A DNA stretch of 64,000 nucleotides from positions 354,702,001 through 354,766,000 of the forward strand of contig OZ024742.1 in assembly GCA_964016885.1 (NCBI GenBank). The letters run 5' to 3'. The DNA is from Eledone cirrhosa. Its lineage: Eukaryota. Of this stretch, positions 1 through 64,000 are shown piece by piece (positions within the stretch are counted from its first letter, which is position 1; every line of letters begins with the position of its first letter). The notes beneath the pieces were generated by a model. It made no database searches. It saw only the letters and a list, made by a program, of their open reading frames with translations, and was not told the DNA's origin. A program made the translations under genes and the position numbers.

Positions 1-2945
1 ATGGTAGAATAGTAGTAATAGAACTTTAATTTAGGGGTAGAGGAAAGCAGATTTCAGTTTTTAATGGAAAGAGTATGATGAATGAAAAGATTATTTTAGG
101 GATGAAAATAGGTCAAGTCGGTAAAAGGTACACGAAAAATTGATCTTATAAAAGAATAATGCTAATGTAAATATCTAAGGAAATAACATTTTACCATAAA
201 TGTGTTAGTGAAAAATATCAATCTTATTTAAAATATAGGGAATTTACATCTATAAAAAGAAAAGAAATTAATTAAATTGATAGGTATATTTATATTGATA
301 AATTTATATTAATTCATATAGATATCACAAATAAGAGTTAGATGTAATTGAAGAGTGCTGTTAAAAGCGAAGGGAAAATAAAAAAAATACTAATAATAAT
401 TATTGGGGGGGGGGGGATTTATTAGTGAGAAATAACAAATTTATATAGATTATAAGGAATATAGAATCATAACCTGACATTAAACTAGTTTATATGTATA
501 CGTATTGGTATACATTTTAGGAAAAGATAGCTGTAACAGGGAAATAAATTATGCAGTTCATTAGTAGTAGAATATTAATTATAGGTTAACTAATTTAACA
601 AAAAAAAAAAAAAAAAAAAGTGTTATTATAATAATTTCTAAAGTGTATATTAATTAGGTTTATAATATTTAAAAGTTATTCTCGATTTATGATTACATGA
701 TATAATTAATTCCTGTCGTTTATTTAATAGGATATCCTTAGATTTCATTATTTCAAAAAGTTCCTGGGAACATAATCCACATTCATATCTATTATTTTGA
801 TCAGGGGGGGGGGGGGGGCTTTTGAGCACACTCCAGGTCAGGTCATAATCTATATTCCTTTTTCTATAATTATTAATTATTTCAGCTAAAGATGTTTTAA
901 TAGCTAATGCGGCATTTTTAAAACTGTGTTTGTGGGTATTAAATCTTACTTTAAATTGGTTAGAAGTAGCTCCTATATATGAATAAGTTGAGTCCTTAGT
1001 GTTAATTTTACATTTATATACTATGTTATTAATAAGGCAATTTCATATTAATGGGCAATTTGCTTTGTTTCTACAGTTACAACCTCGTGAATGCTGTATC
1101 AGAGGAGATAGTCAAATTAGGTGTGGAATTTTCACGACTTGTTGTATGTGAATGAGATGTTGGTTTGCTGTGGTTTATTTTAGTATTATGGTTAGTTTGT
1201 TGTATTGGTGGTATATTCATGTTTTTCTTACATGTATATGCATTATAGGCACTTATATTTTGTTGTATATTTTTGGTTGTTGAGTAGGAGAATTTAACTG
1301 TTGATCTATTTAACATTTGATGGTATTTGTGGTTTGGCGGGAAGTTTTTCTCTAGGATAGTAAAAAATTGTTTAGGTATATTATCTTTAATTTGTAGATT
1401 AAATGGAGCATTATACCAAGGAACTCGTCTATTACGGTTTCGATGTTTTTTTATTATTTTTATAGGATGTATCCTGATGTTTATTAAGAGAATTATTGTT
1501 AATGAATTTATTACACATATTTTTAGTTAGATTCATTGATTTAGGGGTTTTAGCCTGTTTATTAGGAATTTTATTATTAACATATATTGGAGTATTAGGA
1601 TGAATAGTTTTTTGAAAGTTACTATATTGTATATTAGAAGAGTTAGAGAAATTAAGTCTATGTTTGTATTTTTGGGTATAGTGTGACTGGCATTTAGGTG
1701 TGTATATTTCATTTGGTGTTTGTTGGTAATATTGGGTTGTATGTTTGTAGTGTTATTGGTACAAGGTATATATACTAATTTGTTTTTGTGGCCACTTCTA
1801 GCTAAAGCTTCGTTATAAAAGGTCGCATTTTTATCAAATACATCCTGGTTAGACGAAAGGTTAGAAATTCTGAGTGAGATATTATATGCTAGGTTTTTAA
1901 GGATAGATTTAGGGTGATTAGATTGTGAGTGTATGTAATGTAAGTTTTGGTTAGGTTTATGGTAAGGTTGGTAGATACCCGTAGTTAAGTCTAATGTTAT
2001 ATCAAGGAAATTAACTACTTTACTTGTGTTTTCAAATGTAATATCTAGACTATAATAATCTTTGAGGAAAGTTCTAATAAATTTATTATTTTTTTCAATT
2101 TCTGATAGGCTAAGCTTATTGGAAAGAAGAAGACAGTCGTCACGATATAAACCACCTATAAGGTGGGGAAAAGATGCATTTATGTTAAATAGAAGAAAGA
2201 GGCCCACAAGATCGGTAATTTGGGCAGAATCAGTTGAGCCCATAGTAATGTCGAATAGATTACTATATGTGTTTCTGGTCCAGTATTCTTTTTGAAATTC
2301 CAGTAGTGTTTGTCTAGCATGTGTGATAATATTAATGTCATCCATAGTTAAGTTTGATCTATTTTTGTCAAATATCAAGGCTTTGTTCAGGAGTATAGGT
2401 GATATAGAGGAATAATAAGTATCTATATCGAATTGTAGAAATGAAGCAGAAGATTTATTTCTAATATTATTAAACCAGTTAATTACTTGGAATGTGTTTT
2501 CCCAGAGTTGTAAATTAACATGTTTTCTTACTTGTGGGATGACTCTATCTAAAAATGTTTTACTAATGATGCCAATATCAGATTTGGAAGGGCACATAAG
2601 CCTTATAGAAGGATTAGAGTTAAAGTTAGATTTGTGATCTTTCAGGTTAAAATGTGGTTTTTTCAGTGCCAAAGGTTCAGTTCTATCTTCAATATTAAGT
2701 CTATTTACTATGTTGTGTGTTTTGTTGTTGATGTTGGTAAGTGCCACATTGTTTGTTTTTTTATAATTTTTCCTGAGTTCTTTATATATGAACTCATTGT
2801 AATTATCAATATCCATGTGATACAGGTTTCCAGTTTTGTCAGAGTGGACATGGATTGTGTTAGATATTTTTAGATCCAATAGGGTAGAATCAAGATCCCT
2901 TTGAAAATTAGATTTATACTTCTTAAATTTGAGGTGTTTGATTAA
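1..2945 (-). mobile_element. Penelope-like retroelement (Nematis-like), degenerate; 3' UTR runs off the window start
   Basis: ORF 1533..2879 has PLE RT motifs (DKTGNLY, NPSIRLMCPSKSDIG, QFDIDTYY, MGSTDSAQITDLVGL, GLYRDD, NFLDITLDL, PYHKPN, SNHP). Broken frames at ~690-1080 give CNCRNKANCPL...YIGATSNQFKVRFNTHKHSF...CGLC..E (GIY-YIG/CCHH). Confidence 0.9.
1533..2879 (-). pseudogene. PLE reverse transcriptase (frameshifted before the endonuclease)
   Basis: 448-aa ORF with YRDD catalytic motif and PLE thumb motifs. Confidence 0.85.
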
Positions 2946-2974
2946 GTTATATATATATATTCATGTATATATAC

Positions 2975-3192
2975 CAGGAAAGGAGGGCTGAAAATATAGT
3001 GCTTTGATCGCTGTTACAAAGGCCTTGTCAAAGGCCAAACTTTCAAGTTCTTTTTACATGGCTTAGAAATACTGAAGTACCACTGCAATAAGTGTGTAAA
3101 TCCTAGTGGTTAACATGTTGAATAAAATCATTATTAACTGATCCTCCTGTATTTGCTTTTACCAACCGACATGAAATTTTCACACTCGTGTA
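2975..3192 (+). mobile_element. mariner-family transposon 3' remnant
   Basis: 3057-3125 translates HGLEILKYHCNKCVNPSG*HVE*, matching the mariner C-terminus (G...L..RW.KC....G.Y.E). Confidence 0.55.
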
Positions 3193-3274
3193 AATATATA
3201 TATATACACACACATCCACACTGACACCGCCTATATTTGTTTGTATATATATATATATATGTATATATATAAAT

Positions 3275-3369
3275 GGAGAGAGAGAGAGAGAGAGAGAGAG
3301 AGAGAGAGAGAGAGAGAGAGAGAGAGAGAGAGAGAGAGAGAGAGAGAGAGAGAGAGAGAGAGAGAGAGA
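3275..3369. repeat. (GA)n microsatellite
   Basis: Pure GA run. Confidence 0.95.
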
Positions 3370-3607
3370 ATGCAGGTAAAATTCCCCGAGATCTCCATGT
3401 TTCTATTCAATGGCTGATACTACCTTACTGGATCAACTCAAATAAAGGAGTTAGTTGACCCATAAATGGGGCCCTAACACATACTACTGCTCCGGGCATG
3501 AGGAAACCTTTAAGTGAAAACAACTAAGGTGTAACTACACTTTGCCCACATCTATTGAACCGTACTGGAGCCTTTGTACTGGACACAATTTAATGTCAAA
3601 CCCATGA

Positions 3608-3785
3608 ACACGCACACACATACACACACACACATACACACACGCACACACATACACACACACACACACACACGCGCACACACACACATACACACACACA
3701 CACACACACACACACACACACACACACACACACACACACACACACACACACACATATATATATATATATATATATATATTTATAC
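3608..3785. repeat. (CA)n(TA)n compound microsatellite
   Basis: Direct read. Confidence 0.95.
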
Positions 3786-62702: not shown

Positions 62703-62791
62703 ATTCTCGATAAAAGCAAGGGAAGTAATCTACGCGTTTCATTCTTGTTAGAAATCATCAGGACTACATATCCAGTGCTTTTATCGAGAAT
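62703..62791 (-). ncRNA. type I hammerhead ribozyme (copy 2)
   Basis: Same motif, +310. Confidence 0.85.
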
Positions 62792-63012
62792 GACACAGCT
62801 AGAGACTTATAGAATACTTAGCTGTGTACAGGAACTGGTTTGAAAGAGCGGTTGCCGGTCCGGCAGAAATTAGAAATTGGAATAAATGCTCTGAAATAGC
62901 GATATATATGTGAATATAGACATAGAATATTCGAAAATACTCTGTATGTTTATAATAAACATTTTGAAGACCTAATCGCTATAGAATAGAATACGTCACG
63001 TATTACAATTAG

Positions 63013-63101
63013 ATTCTCGATAAAAGCAAGGGAAGTAATCTACGCGTTTCATTCTTGTTAGAAATCATCAGGACTACATATCCAGTGCTTTTATCGAGAA
63101 T
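63013..63101 (-). ncRNA. type I hammerhead ribozyme (copy 3)
   Basis: Same motif, +620. Confidence 0.85.
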
Positions 63102-63322
63102 GACACAGCTAGAGACTTATAGAATACTTAGCTGTGTACAGGAACTGGTTTGAAAGAGCGGTTGCCGGTCCGGCAGAAATTAGAAATTGGAATAAATGCT
63201 CTGAAATAGCGATATATATGTGAATATAGACATAGAATATTCGAAAATACTCTGTATGTTTATAATAAACATTTTGAAGACCTAATCGCTATAGAATAGA
63301 ATACGTCACGTATTACAATTAG

Positions 63323-63410
63323 ATTCTCGATAAAAGCAAGGGAAGTAATCTACGCGTTTCATTCTTGTTAGAAATCATCAGGACTACATATCCAGTGCTT
63401 TTATCGAGAA
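63323..63410 (-). ncRNA. type I hammerhead ribozyme (copy 4)
   Basis: Same motif, +930; the array ends at the outer stem arm. Confidence 0.85.
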
Positions 63411-63600
63411 GGAAATGTGGTAAGGAACCAGGTGGACCATAACGCACCAAAGTACTCAATACTTGAGGTAGTAGAGTGGGTAATAGGAACCAGTAAGACC
63501 CCGACAGCTGAGCTCAAGCCGTTTCGATGGCTAATTCTGGAGTCCAGAATTAGCCGTCGAAACGGCTTGAGCTCAGCTGTCGGGGTCTTACTGGTTCCTA
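63408..63600 (+). repeat. foldback element, copy D
   Basis: Near-perfect ~58-bp arms 63483-63541 / 63543-63601. Confidence 0.85.
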
Positions 63601-64000
63601 TATATATATATATATATAACGGCGATGAATTAGTTTTGCGAGATTTTTGATATGAAATCGTGTGTCGAAACAAATATTGTTATACTTGGGGAGGGTCATA
63701 TTTGTATAATATTGCCAGAATTAATAACAGAACACACTCACTGTTTGGTAGGTTTTCGCTTCTGCGTATTTTATATATGTAATTTAATTTATTCGGTCCT
63801 CAATGTTGCCATTGAATGACCAACCAACGATCGAAAATACAGATACAATATAGACACAAACACATATGTATAGTCTATCAAATTTATTTCGTTGCACATC
63901 TGCAACTACCATCAGTGGTGCTATTGTTTCCTCCTGTTGCATTGTATTTTCTACGCCATCTTTATTTAGTCTGTTTATATAAACAGTGAGTGTGTTCTGT

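What the first reader, a model, noticed from the sequence alone, without database searches (positions are those of the whole stretch)
1..64000. A PLE / hammerhead ecosystem: ~20 ribozyme motifs from many unrelated families in 64 kb
Seen: HHR-like motifs at ~4750, 9510/12250, 13077, 18430, 20250, 21250/22400, 38111, 38945, 46331, 46812/47370, 48560, 48858, 50968 (x3), 59293, 59635 and 62415 (x4). Nearly all are type I with a self-complementary stem III (tatata, caattg, cgatcg, ctaattag, ccgatcgg, cgcg). Most sit either in 3' UTRs/pLTRs of Nematis-like PLEs or in ORF-less tandem units, sharing (TA)n flanks and an inverted piece at the 5' end. Inference: autonomous PLEs plus several parasitic ribozyme RNAs share one (TA)n-targeting integration pathway. 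At this density the genome could hold a very large ribozyme complement.
Basis: partly seen in the sequence, partly recalled or inferred. Interest (0 to 1): 0.72.

Follow-up and report, generated by a model that had tools for sequence, protein, structure and literature searches.

The report
Genome saturated with retrotransposon hammerhead ribozymes
This stretch holds about 35 whole or broken hammerhead-ribozyme motifs at the ends of Penelope-type jumping genes and of small non-coding repeats that likely borrow the same enzyme, a known pairing, but sampling predicts 200,000-500,000 such motifs in this genome, and none has yet been shown to cut itself.

Summary
All 24 listed motifs are real type I hammerhead motifs or decayed copies of hammerhead families; 12 pass my descriptor and about 12 more were missed. 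Shuffles give 0.1-0.4 per window. The window is not a hot spot: 98 regularly spaced 10-kb samples hold 173 motifs (shuffles 0-5), about 200,000 (strict) to 530,000 (relaxed) genome-wide, against 126,247 for axolotl, the highest count I found in print. The window's five ORF remnants look Hydra-clade, not Nematis; four have a family-specific hammerhead 0.4-1.4 kb downstream here, the fifth just outside. Most motifs are solo 3' ends, not next to ORFs or in arrays. (TA)n lies on the 3' side (107 of 130 versus 25-37%). Coding and ORF-less families alike end at two fixed points past the cut site, often in head-to-head pairs, which supports one shared pathway. PLE hammerheads, Hydra/(TA)n targeting and retrozymes as PLE passengers are published. 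The scale and shared junction signature were not found in seven paper searches, but this scan already reported both from other windows of this genome. No RNA evidence.

The parts
647..2954 (-). Hydra-like PLE family A, RT plus GIY-YIG, frameshifted; its hammerhead (CGATCG stem III) lies 108 nt left of the window edge
4758..4794 (+). Decayed hammerhead, same family as 13082; stem I lost
9126..9316 (-). 3' half of family-B hammerhead plus tail, with inverted arm, in (TA)n; core absent
9509..9629 (-). Hammerhead, CCGAUGA core, long loop II, CAATTG stem III, in the inverted 5' arm (9489-10026) of PLE family C
10019..11844 (+). Hydra-like PLE family C, 5'-truncated and broken
12247..12366 (+). pLTR hammerhead of family C; core G5 changed
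13076..13124 (+). Intact minimal hammerhead (GGAC loop); family is the 3' end of a Nematis-like PLE
14276..14727 (+). ORF-less ~427-nt unit with terminal redundancy; decayed hammerhead at 14429-14471 (missed by reader)
18427..18487 (+). Hammerhead, TATATA stem III, stem II decayed; solo 3' end, parent not identified
18684..18748 (-). 3' half of the 59425-type hammerhead
20250..20286 (-). Minimal hammerhead, stem II deletion; 7 homologues in the sample
20922..21019 (+). Decayed hammerhead homologue (73% identity)
21246..21351 (-). Hammerhead, CCGAUGA core, 3-bp stem I; inverted partner of 22405
22402..22507 (+). Hammerhead, CCGAUGA core, CAATTG stem III; one homologue lies ~0.8 kb after a Hydra-like EN (L037)
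22792..22990 (+). Family-B 3' half with inverted arm
23091..23207 (-). Hammerhead with 82-nt stem-loop II (missed by reader)
25273..25363 (-). Hammerhead with a true hairpin stem III and GUC site, predicted to work as a monomer (missed by reader)
38113..38248 (+). Family-A pLTR hammerhead (CGATCG) in a truncated 3' end with inverted 5' arm at 37683-37946
38578..38783 (+). Family-B 3' half with inverted arm
38948..39019 (-). pLTR hammerhead of PLE family D, cut site mutated
40396..41862 (-). Hydra-like PLE family D, broken; N-terminal piece inverted at 41944-42224
42917..42987 (-). Intact pLTR hammerhead (TGCGCA) of the PLE whose EN is at 44049-44378 (missed by reader)
44049..44378 (-). Hydra-like GIY-YIG end, family F
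44582..44995 (+). Hydra-like GIY-YIG end, family E
46330..46395 (+). pLTR hammerhead (TATATA) of family E; G12 missing in this copy
46634..47611 (-). ORF-less ~540-560-nt tandem element: hammerheads at 46808-46894 and 47366-47452, inverted core-less arm 47481-47611, (TA)n both sides
48557..48645 (+). Hammerhead, CGCG stem III, stem I mismatched in this copy
48857..48911 (-). Hammerhead, TATGTA stem III; 3' half repeated inverted at 50491-50529
50701..52092 (+). ORF-less 483-nt tandem array (2.8 units), intact hammerheads at 50965-51054, 51448-51537, 51931-52020, short inverted arm 50701-50728, (TA)n both sides
59295..59433 (-). Intact hammerhead, CGATCG stem III, 104-nt stem-loop II; relative of family A
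59632..59696 (-). Intact hammerhead, TATGTA stem III; two homologues lie 1.25-1.53 kb after Hydra-like ENs
62006..62119 (+). 3' half of the 48562-family hammerhead
62256..63413 (-). ORF-less 310-nt tandem array (3.7 units), four intact minimal hammerheads (CGCG), 3' end at (TA)n
63408..63601 (-). Family-B 3' half with inverted arm

Best explanation
The motifs are type I hammerhead sequences at the 3' ends of several Penelope-like retrotransposon families and in ORF-less tandem units, and both kinds were likely written into (TA)n runs by a Penelope RT-endonuclease that would cut the target and copy the RNA onto both broken ends from two fixed internal start points. SHOWN: the motifs, their family-specific position 0.2-2.2 kb after PLE ORFs, the (TA)n junction on the 3' side, two fixed 3' end points per family, head-to-head pairs, and variants private to one array shared by all its units and both arms. 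INFERRED: copying usually stops after a few hundred bases, so most insertions keep only the last 100-500 nt, which contains the ribozyme; this, not selection on each copy, is why ribozymes pile up. Ends lie 20-210 nt past the cut site, so the template must span that site: an uncut or tandem transcript for coding elements, and most likely a cut-and-ligated RNA circle read round repeatedly for the 310-, 483- and ~550-nt units (about 60%). Short palindromic stems III are predicted to need two ribozymes pairing; hairpin forms (25353, family B) would work alone.
For: Descriptor vs shuffles. Compensatory changes in stem I and a C3-G8 to U3-A8 swap across CGATCG relatives: 97.5% of cells paired, 5 pairs changed on both sides, slid controls 30-63%. 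Family-level ORF link: 12/13, 13/13 and 8/13 other EN copies carry the same hammerhead 0.8-1.4 kb downstream; family A in 11 of the 13 loci visible; 7 sample copies of the 13082 family lie 186-243 nt after Nematis-like coding DNA; family B is a 3,531-nt tandem unit with a 784-aa open frame and a U3-A8 hammerhead. (TA)n within 200 nt downstream in 107/130 vs 25% (37% locus-matched); upstream 41/130; no (CA)n or (GA)n excess. Two end points: B 20/100, TGCGCA 53/135, TATGTA 59/136-142, 13082 family 155/203; ORF-less 483-nt 11/11 junctions at 78-80 or 188-193, 310-nt 9/9 at 139 or 165-170, ~550-nt 33/37 in two groups. Head-to-head 28 vs tail-to-tail 8; in the largest family 10 of 11 pairs join one short and one long end. 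483-nt units differ by 0.64 within and 3.01 between arrays. A purified PLE cuts both strands at AT-rich DNA and starts at two internal sites (PMC11167929).
Against: No cleavage, expression or circle was observed. Per copy, PLE coding DNA upstream is only 3-fold enriched (20/173 vs 3.8%), is as common on the opposite strand (18/173), and was not significant with Hydra queries alone (5/134, p=0.2). Five head-to-head pairs have equal ends (126/126, 162/162, 34/34, 57/57, 86/86). Tails here are 30-120 nt against 30-40 nt in print. Parents of the 18435, 20281, 23199, 25353, 48562 and 48903 families were not identified. Homogeneous arrays fit a long linear transcript of a donor array as well as a circle. 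The covariation alignment has 10 related, mostly descriptor-selected rows. Only 1 of 9 predicted Xenopus retrozyme dimers cleaved in vitro.
Confidence: 0.83

Rival explanations
1. The ORF-less arrays are PLE passengers copied from long linear tandem transcripts of donor arrays, or single ends amplified locally in DNA by unequal crossing-over; no RNA circle is involved and the ribozyme is mostly a rider.
For: HHR cleavage was not needed for insertion in vitro and uncut RNA was the main template (PMC11167929). Li et al. propose local amplification of a PLE terminus. Within-array homogeneity fits a homogeneous donor.
Against: Both arms of head-to-head insertions can be multi-unit, 10+5 units at G000:C4:192.66 Mb. 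Arrays are dispersed on many chromosomes with the same two end points. Units fold better than shuffles as circles, z -2.3 to -4.3. Intact ribozymes in every unit would cut a long transcript.
Confidence: 0.3
2. The short inverted-repeat elements are DNA transposons (MITEs) or SINEs moved by another enzyme, such as an RTE or R4 LINE that targets TA repeats, and the hammerhead link to PLEs is incidental.
For: Palindromic 200-nt elements resemble MITEs; LINE RT fragments are in the window; most motifs have no ORF nearby.
Against: The arms are unequal by a fixed tail and the centres vary. The same sequences are the ends of PLE ORFs. No poly(A) or LINE tail was seen at the junctions printed.
Confidence: 0.07
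3. The motifs are chance matches of a loose descriptor in AT-rich, repeat-rich DNA.
For: Rfam finds none at gathering threshold; a minisatellite in L055 gave 9 false U3-A8 hits and 5 control-core hits; 49443+ looks like chance.
Against: 173 vs 0-5 in shuffles; 78 vs 0-2 at the strict tier; altered control cores give 0-1 hits outside that minisatellite; covariation.
Confidence: 0.01

Closest known systems
Hydra clade of Penelope-like elements, including Hydra-1_Obim of Octopus bimaculoides (Craig et al. 2021, PMC8557442; introduction, Hydra section, passages and supplement parts 2 and 54 read)
   Same: C-terminal GIY-YIG, DKT, CxCx5C linker, CxxC and CxH motifs, hammerhead near the 3' end, (TA)n target, inverted 5' copy and one-sided tail.
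   Different: Described as a few families under 3 kb. Here at least six families, units of 3.5-4.6 kb, 47,852 first-look candidates for one RT query (not a copy number), stem-loops II up to 116 nt, tails up to 120 nt, U3-A8 and U4C cores.
PLE-associated minimal type I hammerheads (Cervera and de la Pena 2014, PMC4209133; parts 1-2 of 4 read)
   Same: Minimal or palindromic stem III, extra base after A9, many unrelated families per genome, mostly solo copies from truncated PLEs, opposite-strand pairs 100-700 bp apart, U3-A8 core variant.
   Different: Counts there are 2,000-9,000 per genome; here an estimated 200,000-530,000 with different descriptors.
Metazoan non-LTR retrozymes (Cervera and de la Pena 2020, PMC7229834, parts 2-3 and passages read; Li, Clavereau and Pollet 2026, bioRxiv 10.64898/2026.07.22.740005, parts 1-3 of 5 read, supplements not seen)
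   Same: ORF-less tandem units with one type I hammerhead each, GC under 50%, co-occurring with PLEs, proposed to be moved by PLEs.
   Different: Those papers argue from co-occurrence and pLTR similarity. Here the arrays show the PLE junction signature itself. Circular RNA was shown there and is untested here.
Poseidon PLE of Anolis in vitro (Frangieh et al. 2024, PMC11167929; parts 1-2 of 4 read)
   Same: Both target strands cut and extended, AT-rich target, two internal start sites downstream of the hammerhead defining a tail.
   Different: Other clade, tail 30-40 nt, no passenger RNAs tested.

Membership tests
Type I hammerhead ribozyme | CUGANGA, GAAA and NUH in type I order with stems I and II | tested here: met
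Type I hammerhead ribozyme | Stem III: hairpin, or palindrome allowing a dimer | tested here: met
   99 perfect palindromes, 22 hairpins, 52 short imperfect of 173; self-duplex -3 to -17 kcal/mol for palindromes, hairpin about 0
Type I hammerhead ribozyme | Covariation in stems and in the 3-8 pair | tested here: met
   one family group, 10 related rows
Type I hammerhead ribozyme | Site-specific self-cleavage | not testable with these tools
   needs in vitro transcription
Hydra-clade PLE | Single ORF, RT then C-terminal GIY-YIG | tested here: met
   834-aa and 784-aa open frames in family A and B copies
Hydra-clade PLE | DKT for DKG; CxCx5C linker; no CCHH cysteines inside GIY-YIG; CxxC and CxH around the E and N; Hydra-type RT4 | tested here: met
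   read by eye against the text and the alignment
Hydra-clade PLE | N-terminal RWK motif | tested here: inconclusive
   RWR in both full-length proteins
Hydra-clade PLE | Hammerhead near 3' end and (TA)n insertion | tested here: met
Hydra-clade PLE | Length generally under 3 kb (a tendency, not a diagnostic) | tested here: not met
   unit 3,531 nt for B, about 4.6 kb for A
Hydra-clade PLE | Placement in an RT tree with reference elements | not tested
   no reference PLE proteins were held as session sequences; one search returned almost only unnamed hits
Nematis-clade PLE | CX2-5CxxC linker plus CCHH in the endonuclease | tested here: not met
   absent from the window's ORF families; present by eye only in the parent of the 13082 family
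Non-LTR retrozyme | Tandem units, each with a type I hammerhead, no ORF, GC under 50% | tested here: met
   310, 483 and 558 nt; longest ATG frame 30-51 aa; GC 0.34-0.40
Non-LTR retrozyme | Self-paired circular fold | tested here: met
   56-60% paired, z -2.3 to -4.3 vs 30 shuffles; prediction only
Non-LTR retrozyme | Accumulates as circular RNA | not testable with these tools
   no RNA run available to lay
Type-SGC (non-circularly permuted) hammerhead | Blocks in site-GAAA-CUGANGA order | tested here: not met
   no non-type-I parse in the window; the descriptor was strict and also found no SGC in the 980-kb sample, so it may miss short-stem forms

The most novel reading that the evidence does not exclude
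This genome is the most hammerhead-dense known: up to half a million motifs, one per 6-15 kb, about 14-40 times the axolotl density, made by at least two PLE clades and several circular passenger RNAs still moving now. Each insertion records two-ended reverse transcription of one RNA circle from two fixed start sites, with a GAGTRC tail motif as a shared recognition signal, and intact copies in introns and UTRs cut host transcripts on a scale that shapes the transcriptome.
Probability: 0.3. Interest if true: 0.75.

Novelty: new variant of a known kind. Interest (0 to 1): 0.52.

Why it matters
How retrozymes move is an open question, so far argued from co-occurrence with PLEs. Here young coding elements (identical copies, intact ORFs) and young ORF-less arrays share measurable end points, so enzyme, template and start sites can be tested together in vitro. 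The genome also offers thousands of natural hammerhead variants (U3-A8, U4C, U4A cores, 100-nt loops) that Rfam misses, and explains many 'MITE-like' palindromes and unclassified repeats as PLE ends. The components are known; the news is scale and junction-level evidence.

Tried and rejected
Rfam: 0 hits at gathering, only a weak RAGATH-1-hammerhead at 25278-25383 among the 150 of 196 E-value rows shown. Pfam did not recognise the PLE fragments. A canonical-core pattern for family B found 0 matches because its core is U3-A8. A query upstream of the 14433 family was simple repeat and returned nothing; the 1.4-kb 'extension' of that family was an artefact of that repeat. One all-against-all BLAST timed out and was rerun masked. 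G3-C8 and A3-U8 cores are not above shuffles. Permuted-hammerhead search: none in the window; one GCS parse in the sample is a tandem artefact. 'Window is a hot spot' rejected. 'Nematis' rejected for the window's ORFs. Rows dropped: three singleton clusters (F23, F29, F30); nine minisatellite hits in L055. The 310-nt within/between means are inflated by overlapping loci and are not used. The family-A query returned no rows. Output was cut; counts come from the visible parts or printed totals. Paper searches found no hammerhead census for a cephalopod; the O. vulgaris repeat paper has no occurrence of 'ribozyme' (PMC13282606, passages). Subscription papers and bioRxiv supplements were not visible and may hold higher counts; Lunse et al. 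2017 on dimeric PLE hammerheads is recalled, not seen.

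
Full report
OBSERVATION. Rfam finds no family at gathering threshold, so I wrote a type I descriptor (core, stem II with loop up to 135 nt, GAAA, palindromic or hairpin stem III, NUH, stem I). The strictest form finds 12 motifs against shuffle means of 0.10-0.15; the relaxed form 15 against 0.39. The other 12 are homologues of hammerheads elsewhere in the genome, with 3-bp stems I or single lesions. 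About 12 further whole or partial motifs were missed, among them 23199-, 25353- and 42979-. In all about 35 motifs from about 18 families. 49443+ passes but has no homologue and is probably chance.

SCALE. The genome is 2,996 Mb. I fetched 98 regularly spaced 10-kb stretches from 25 large contigs totalling 2,712 Mb (2 of 100 requests were outside a contig; C28 and small contigs were not sampled). They hold 173 motifs after dropping 9 minisatellite hits; shuffles give 0-5. 59 of 98 stretches have at least one. Stratified estimates: 530,000 (95% bootstrap 400,000-680,000) relaxed; 247,000 (158,000-357,000) with canonical core and at least 4 consecutive pairs in stems I and II; 200,000 (116,000-299,000) if stem-loop II is also 40 nt or less; about 390,000 insertion events. 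The window, 15 against 11.3 expected, is average (P=0.23). The canonical and U4C set forms 32 clusters, 12 of them singletons. Highest counts seen in print: axolotl 126,247 (28.21 Gb; about 4.5 per Mb), Xenopus about 9,000, coral over 6,000. Descriptors differ, so the comparison is rough.

STRUCTURE SUPPORT. Altered control cores give 0-1 hits outside one minisatellite, while U3-A8, U4C and U4A cores recur in families. In ten CGATCG-type motifs 97.5% of cells pair, five pairs change on both sides, including two in stem I that change together with C3-G8 to U3-A8. The rows are related and mostly descriptor-selected. Stem III is a perfect palindrome in 99 of 173, a hairpin in 22.

PARENTS. The RT at 647-2954 has many intact ~830-codon relatives. 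Its protein shows DKT, CxCx5C, no cysteines inside GIY-YIG and CxxC/CxH at the C-terminus, the Hydra-clade description of Craig et al., and matches their Hydra RT4 rows by eye. Their supplement already lists an Octopus Hydra element with a hammerhead and (TA)n target. No tree was built. The organism is not given; earlier notes call it octopus-like and I did not test that. Family A's hammerhead is the 38120 type, seen in 11 of 13 visible intact loci and 108 nt left of the window. Three more window ENs are tied to their hammerheads in 12/13, 13/13 and 8/13 other copies. The four 200-nt palindromes are truncated ends of family B, a 3,531-nt unit with 100% identical ends, a 784-aa frame and a U3-A8 hammerhead. 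The 13082/4759 family ends a PLE with a CX4CxxC linker resembling Nematis rows. Three families are ORF-less tandem units (310, 483, ~550 nt), 95-100% identical among the best matches on many contigs; the 14433 unit looks like a fourth. Six families are unassigned.

COPY-LEVEL CONTEXT. 26 of 153 are tandem. Most are solo 3' ends.

JUNCTIONS. (TA)n lies within 200 nt downstream of the cut site in 107 of 130 (background 25%, locus-matched 37%), upstream in 41 of 130; (CA)n and (GA)n are not enriched. Each well-sampled family has two end points, and so do the ORF-less arrays: 11/11, 9/9 and 33/37 distinct junctions, with (TA)n directly after 11, 8 and 29 of them. Head-to-head pairs outnumber tail-to-tail 28 to 8, and usually join a short with a long end; five pairs do not. 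Variants private to an array are shared by its units and, in L006, L015, L202, L057 and L226, by both arms.

MECHANISM. Shown: all of the above. Taken from the literature: a PLE protein cuts both strands of AT-rich DNA, extends both, and starts at two internal sites that define a tail; ribozyme cleavage was not required. Inferred: the same happens here at (TA)n, early termination leaves mainly ribozyme-bearing ends, and ORF-less units use the same proteins. Because ends fall past the cut site, the template spans it; a circle is my preferred reading for arrays (about 60%), a linear tandem transcript the rival. Cleavage and expression are untested.

NOVELTY. PLE hammerheads with palindromic stem III, solo copies and opposite-strand pairs, retrozymes as PLE passengers, and Hydra/(TA)n targeting with inverted copies and tails are published. 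The scale and the junction signature on ORF-less arrays were not found in seven searches. Earlier notes of this scan report both, with about 200,000 motifs, from other windows of this genome; my strict tier, computed after seeing them, agrees, but they are not independent evidence. Their permuted hammerhead family was not found in this window. Verdict: real, a known kind at unusual scale; interest 0.52.

Noticed in passing
window 9126-9316, 22792-22990, 38578-38783, 63408-63601; 23 copies in L016-L113: Family-B ends are cut short at nearly the same place, 28-44 nt before the cut site, inside stem-loop II (42 of 50 alignments; inverted arm or microsatellite follows in 26 of 27). They lack the core; roughly 70,000 genome-wide. 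Cause unexplained.
   Followed up: partly
tails of several families, e.g. window 44428-44433, 46457-46462, 38733-38738: A GAGTRC motif lies between the two end points in several unrelated families: 27 of 82 long tails vs 1.9% in shuffles; absent from the CTAG, CGATCG, CGCG and CTAATTAG families. Possible protein-recognition signal.
   Followed up: partly
window 52159-52716 (-): ORF-less ~490-nt unit with 67-nt terminal redundancy between (TA)n runs, tandem homologue in L042, GAGTGC at its end, but no hammerhead parse and no Rfam hit. Candidate passenger with another or no ribozyme.
   Followed up: partly
window 53175-53863 and 63638-64000: Family with a tail like the 13082 family and a Nematis-like coding fragment (53244-53405), whose TTGAGGA...GAAA region does not parse as type I.
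   Followed up: no
L020:1427(-), L020:2355(+), L034:9780(-): Cluster of 15 copies in 8 of 98 samples with GGUC, GAAA and CUGAUGA in that order, close to (TA)n; probably the permuted hammerhead of earlier notes. Not in the window.
   Followed up: partly
L016:8573(+) and six more samples: Family with a CAGAAGA (U4A) core and hairpin stem III, one copy 0.94 kb after a Hydra-like EN; also U3-A8 relatives of the CGATCG family in L032 and L052.
   Followed up: partly
G000 C4 vs C2/C3: Motif density is uneven: 6 in 10 samples on C4, 39 in 14 on C2, 43 in 12 on C3; small samples, partly driven by arrays.
   Followed up: no
window 6620-6714, 12355-12602, 26928-27047, 42364-42686, 57270-57483: Very high-copy SINE-like repeat, up to 173 alignments in 980 kb.
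   Followed up: no
window 28210-33112, 53966-56406, 8762-9119, 15180-17070: Broken LINE remnants (RVT_1 at 30165-31052 and 54412-54999), an RTE-like 3' piece, and a decayed hAT-like transposase (names for the last two recalled, no Pfam hit).
   Followed up: no
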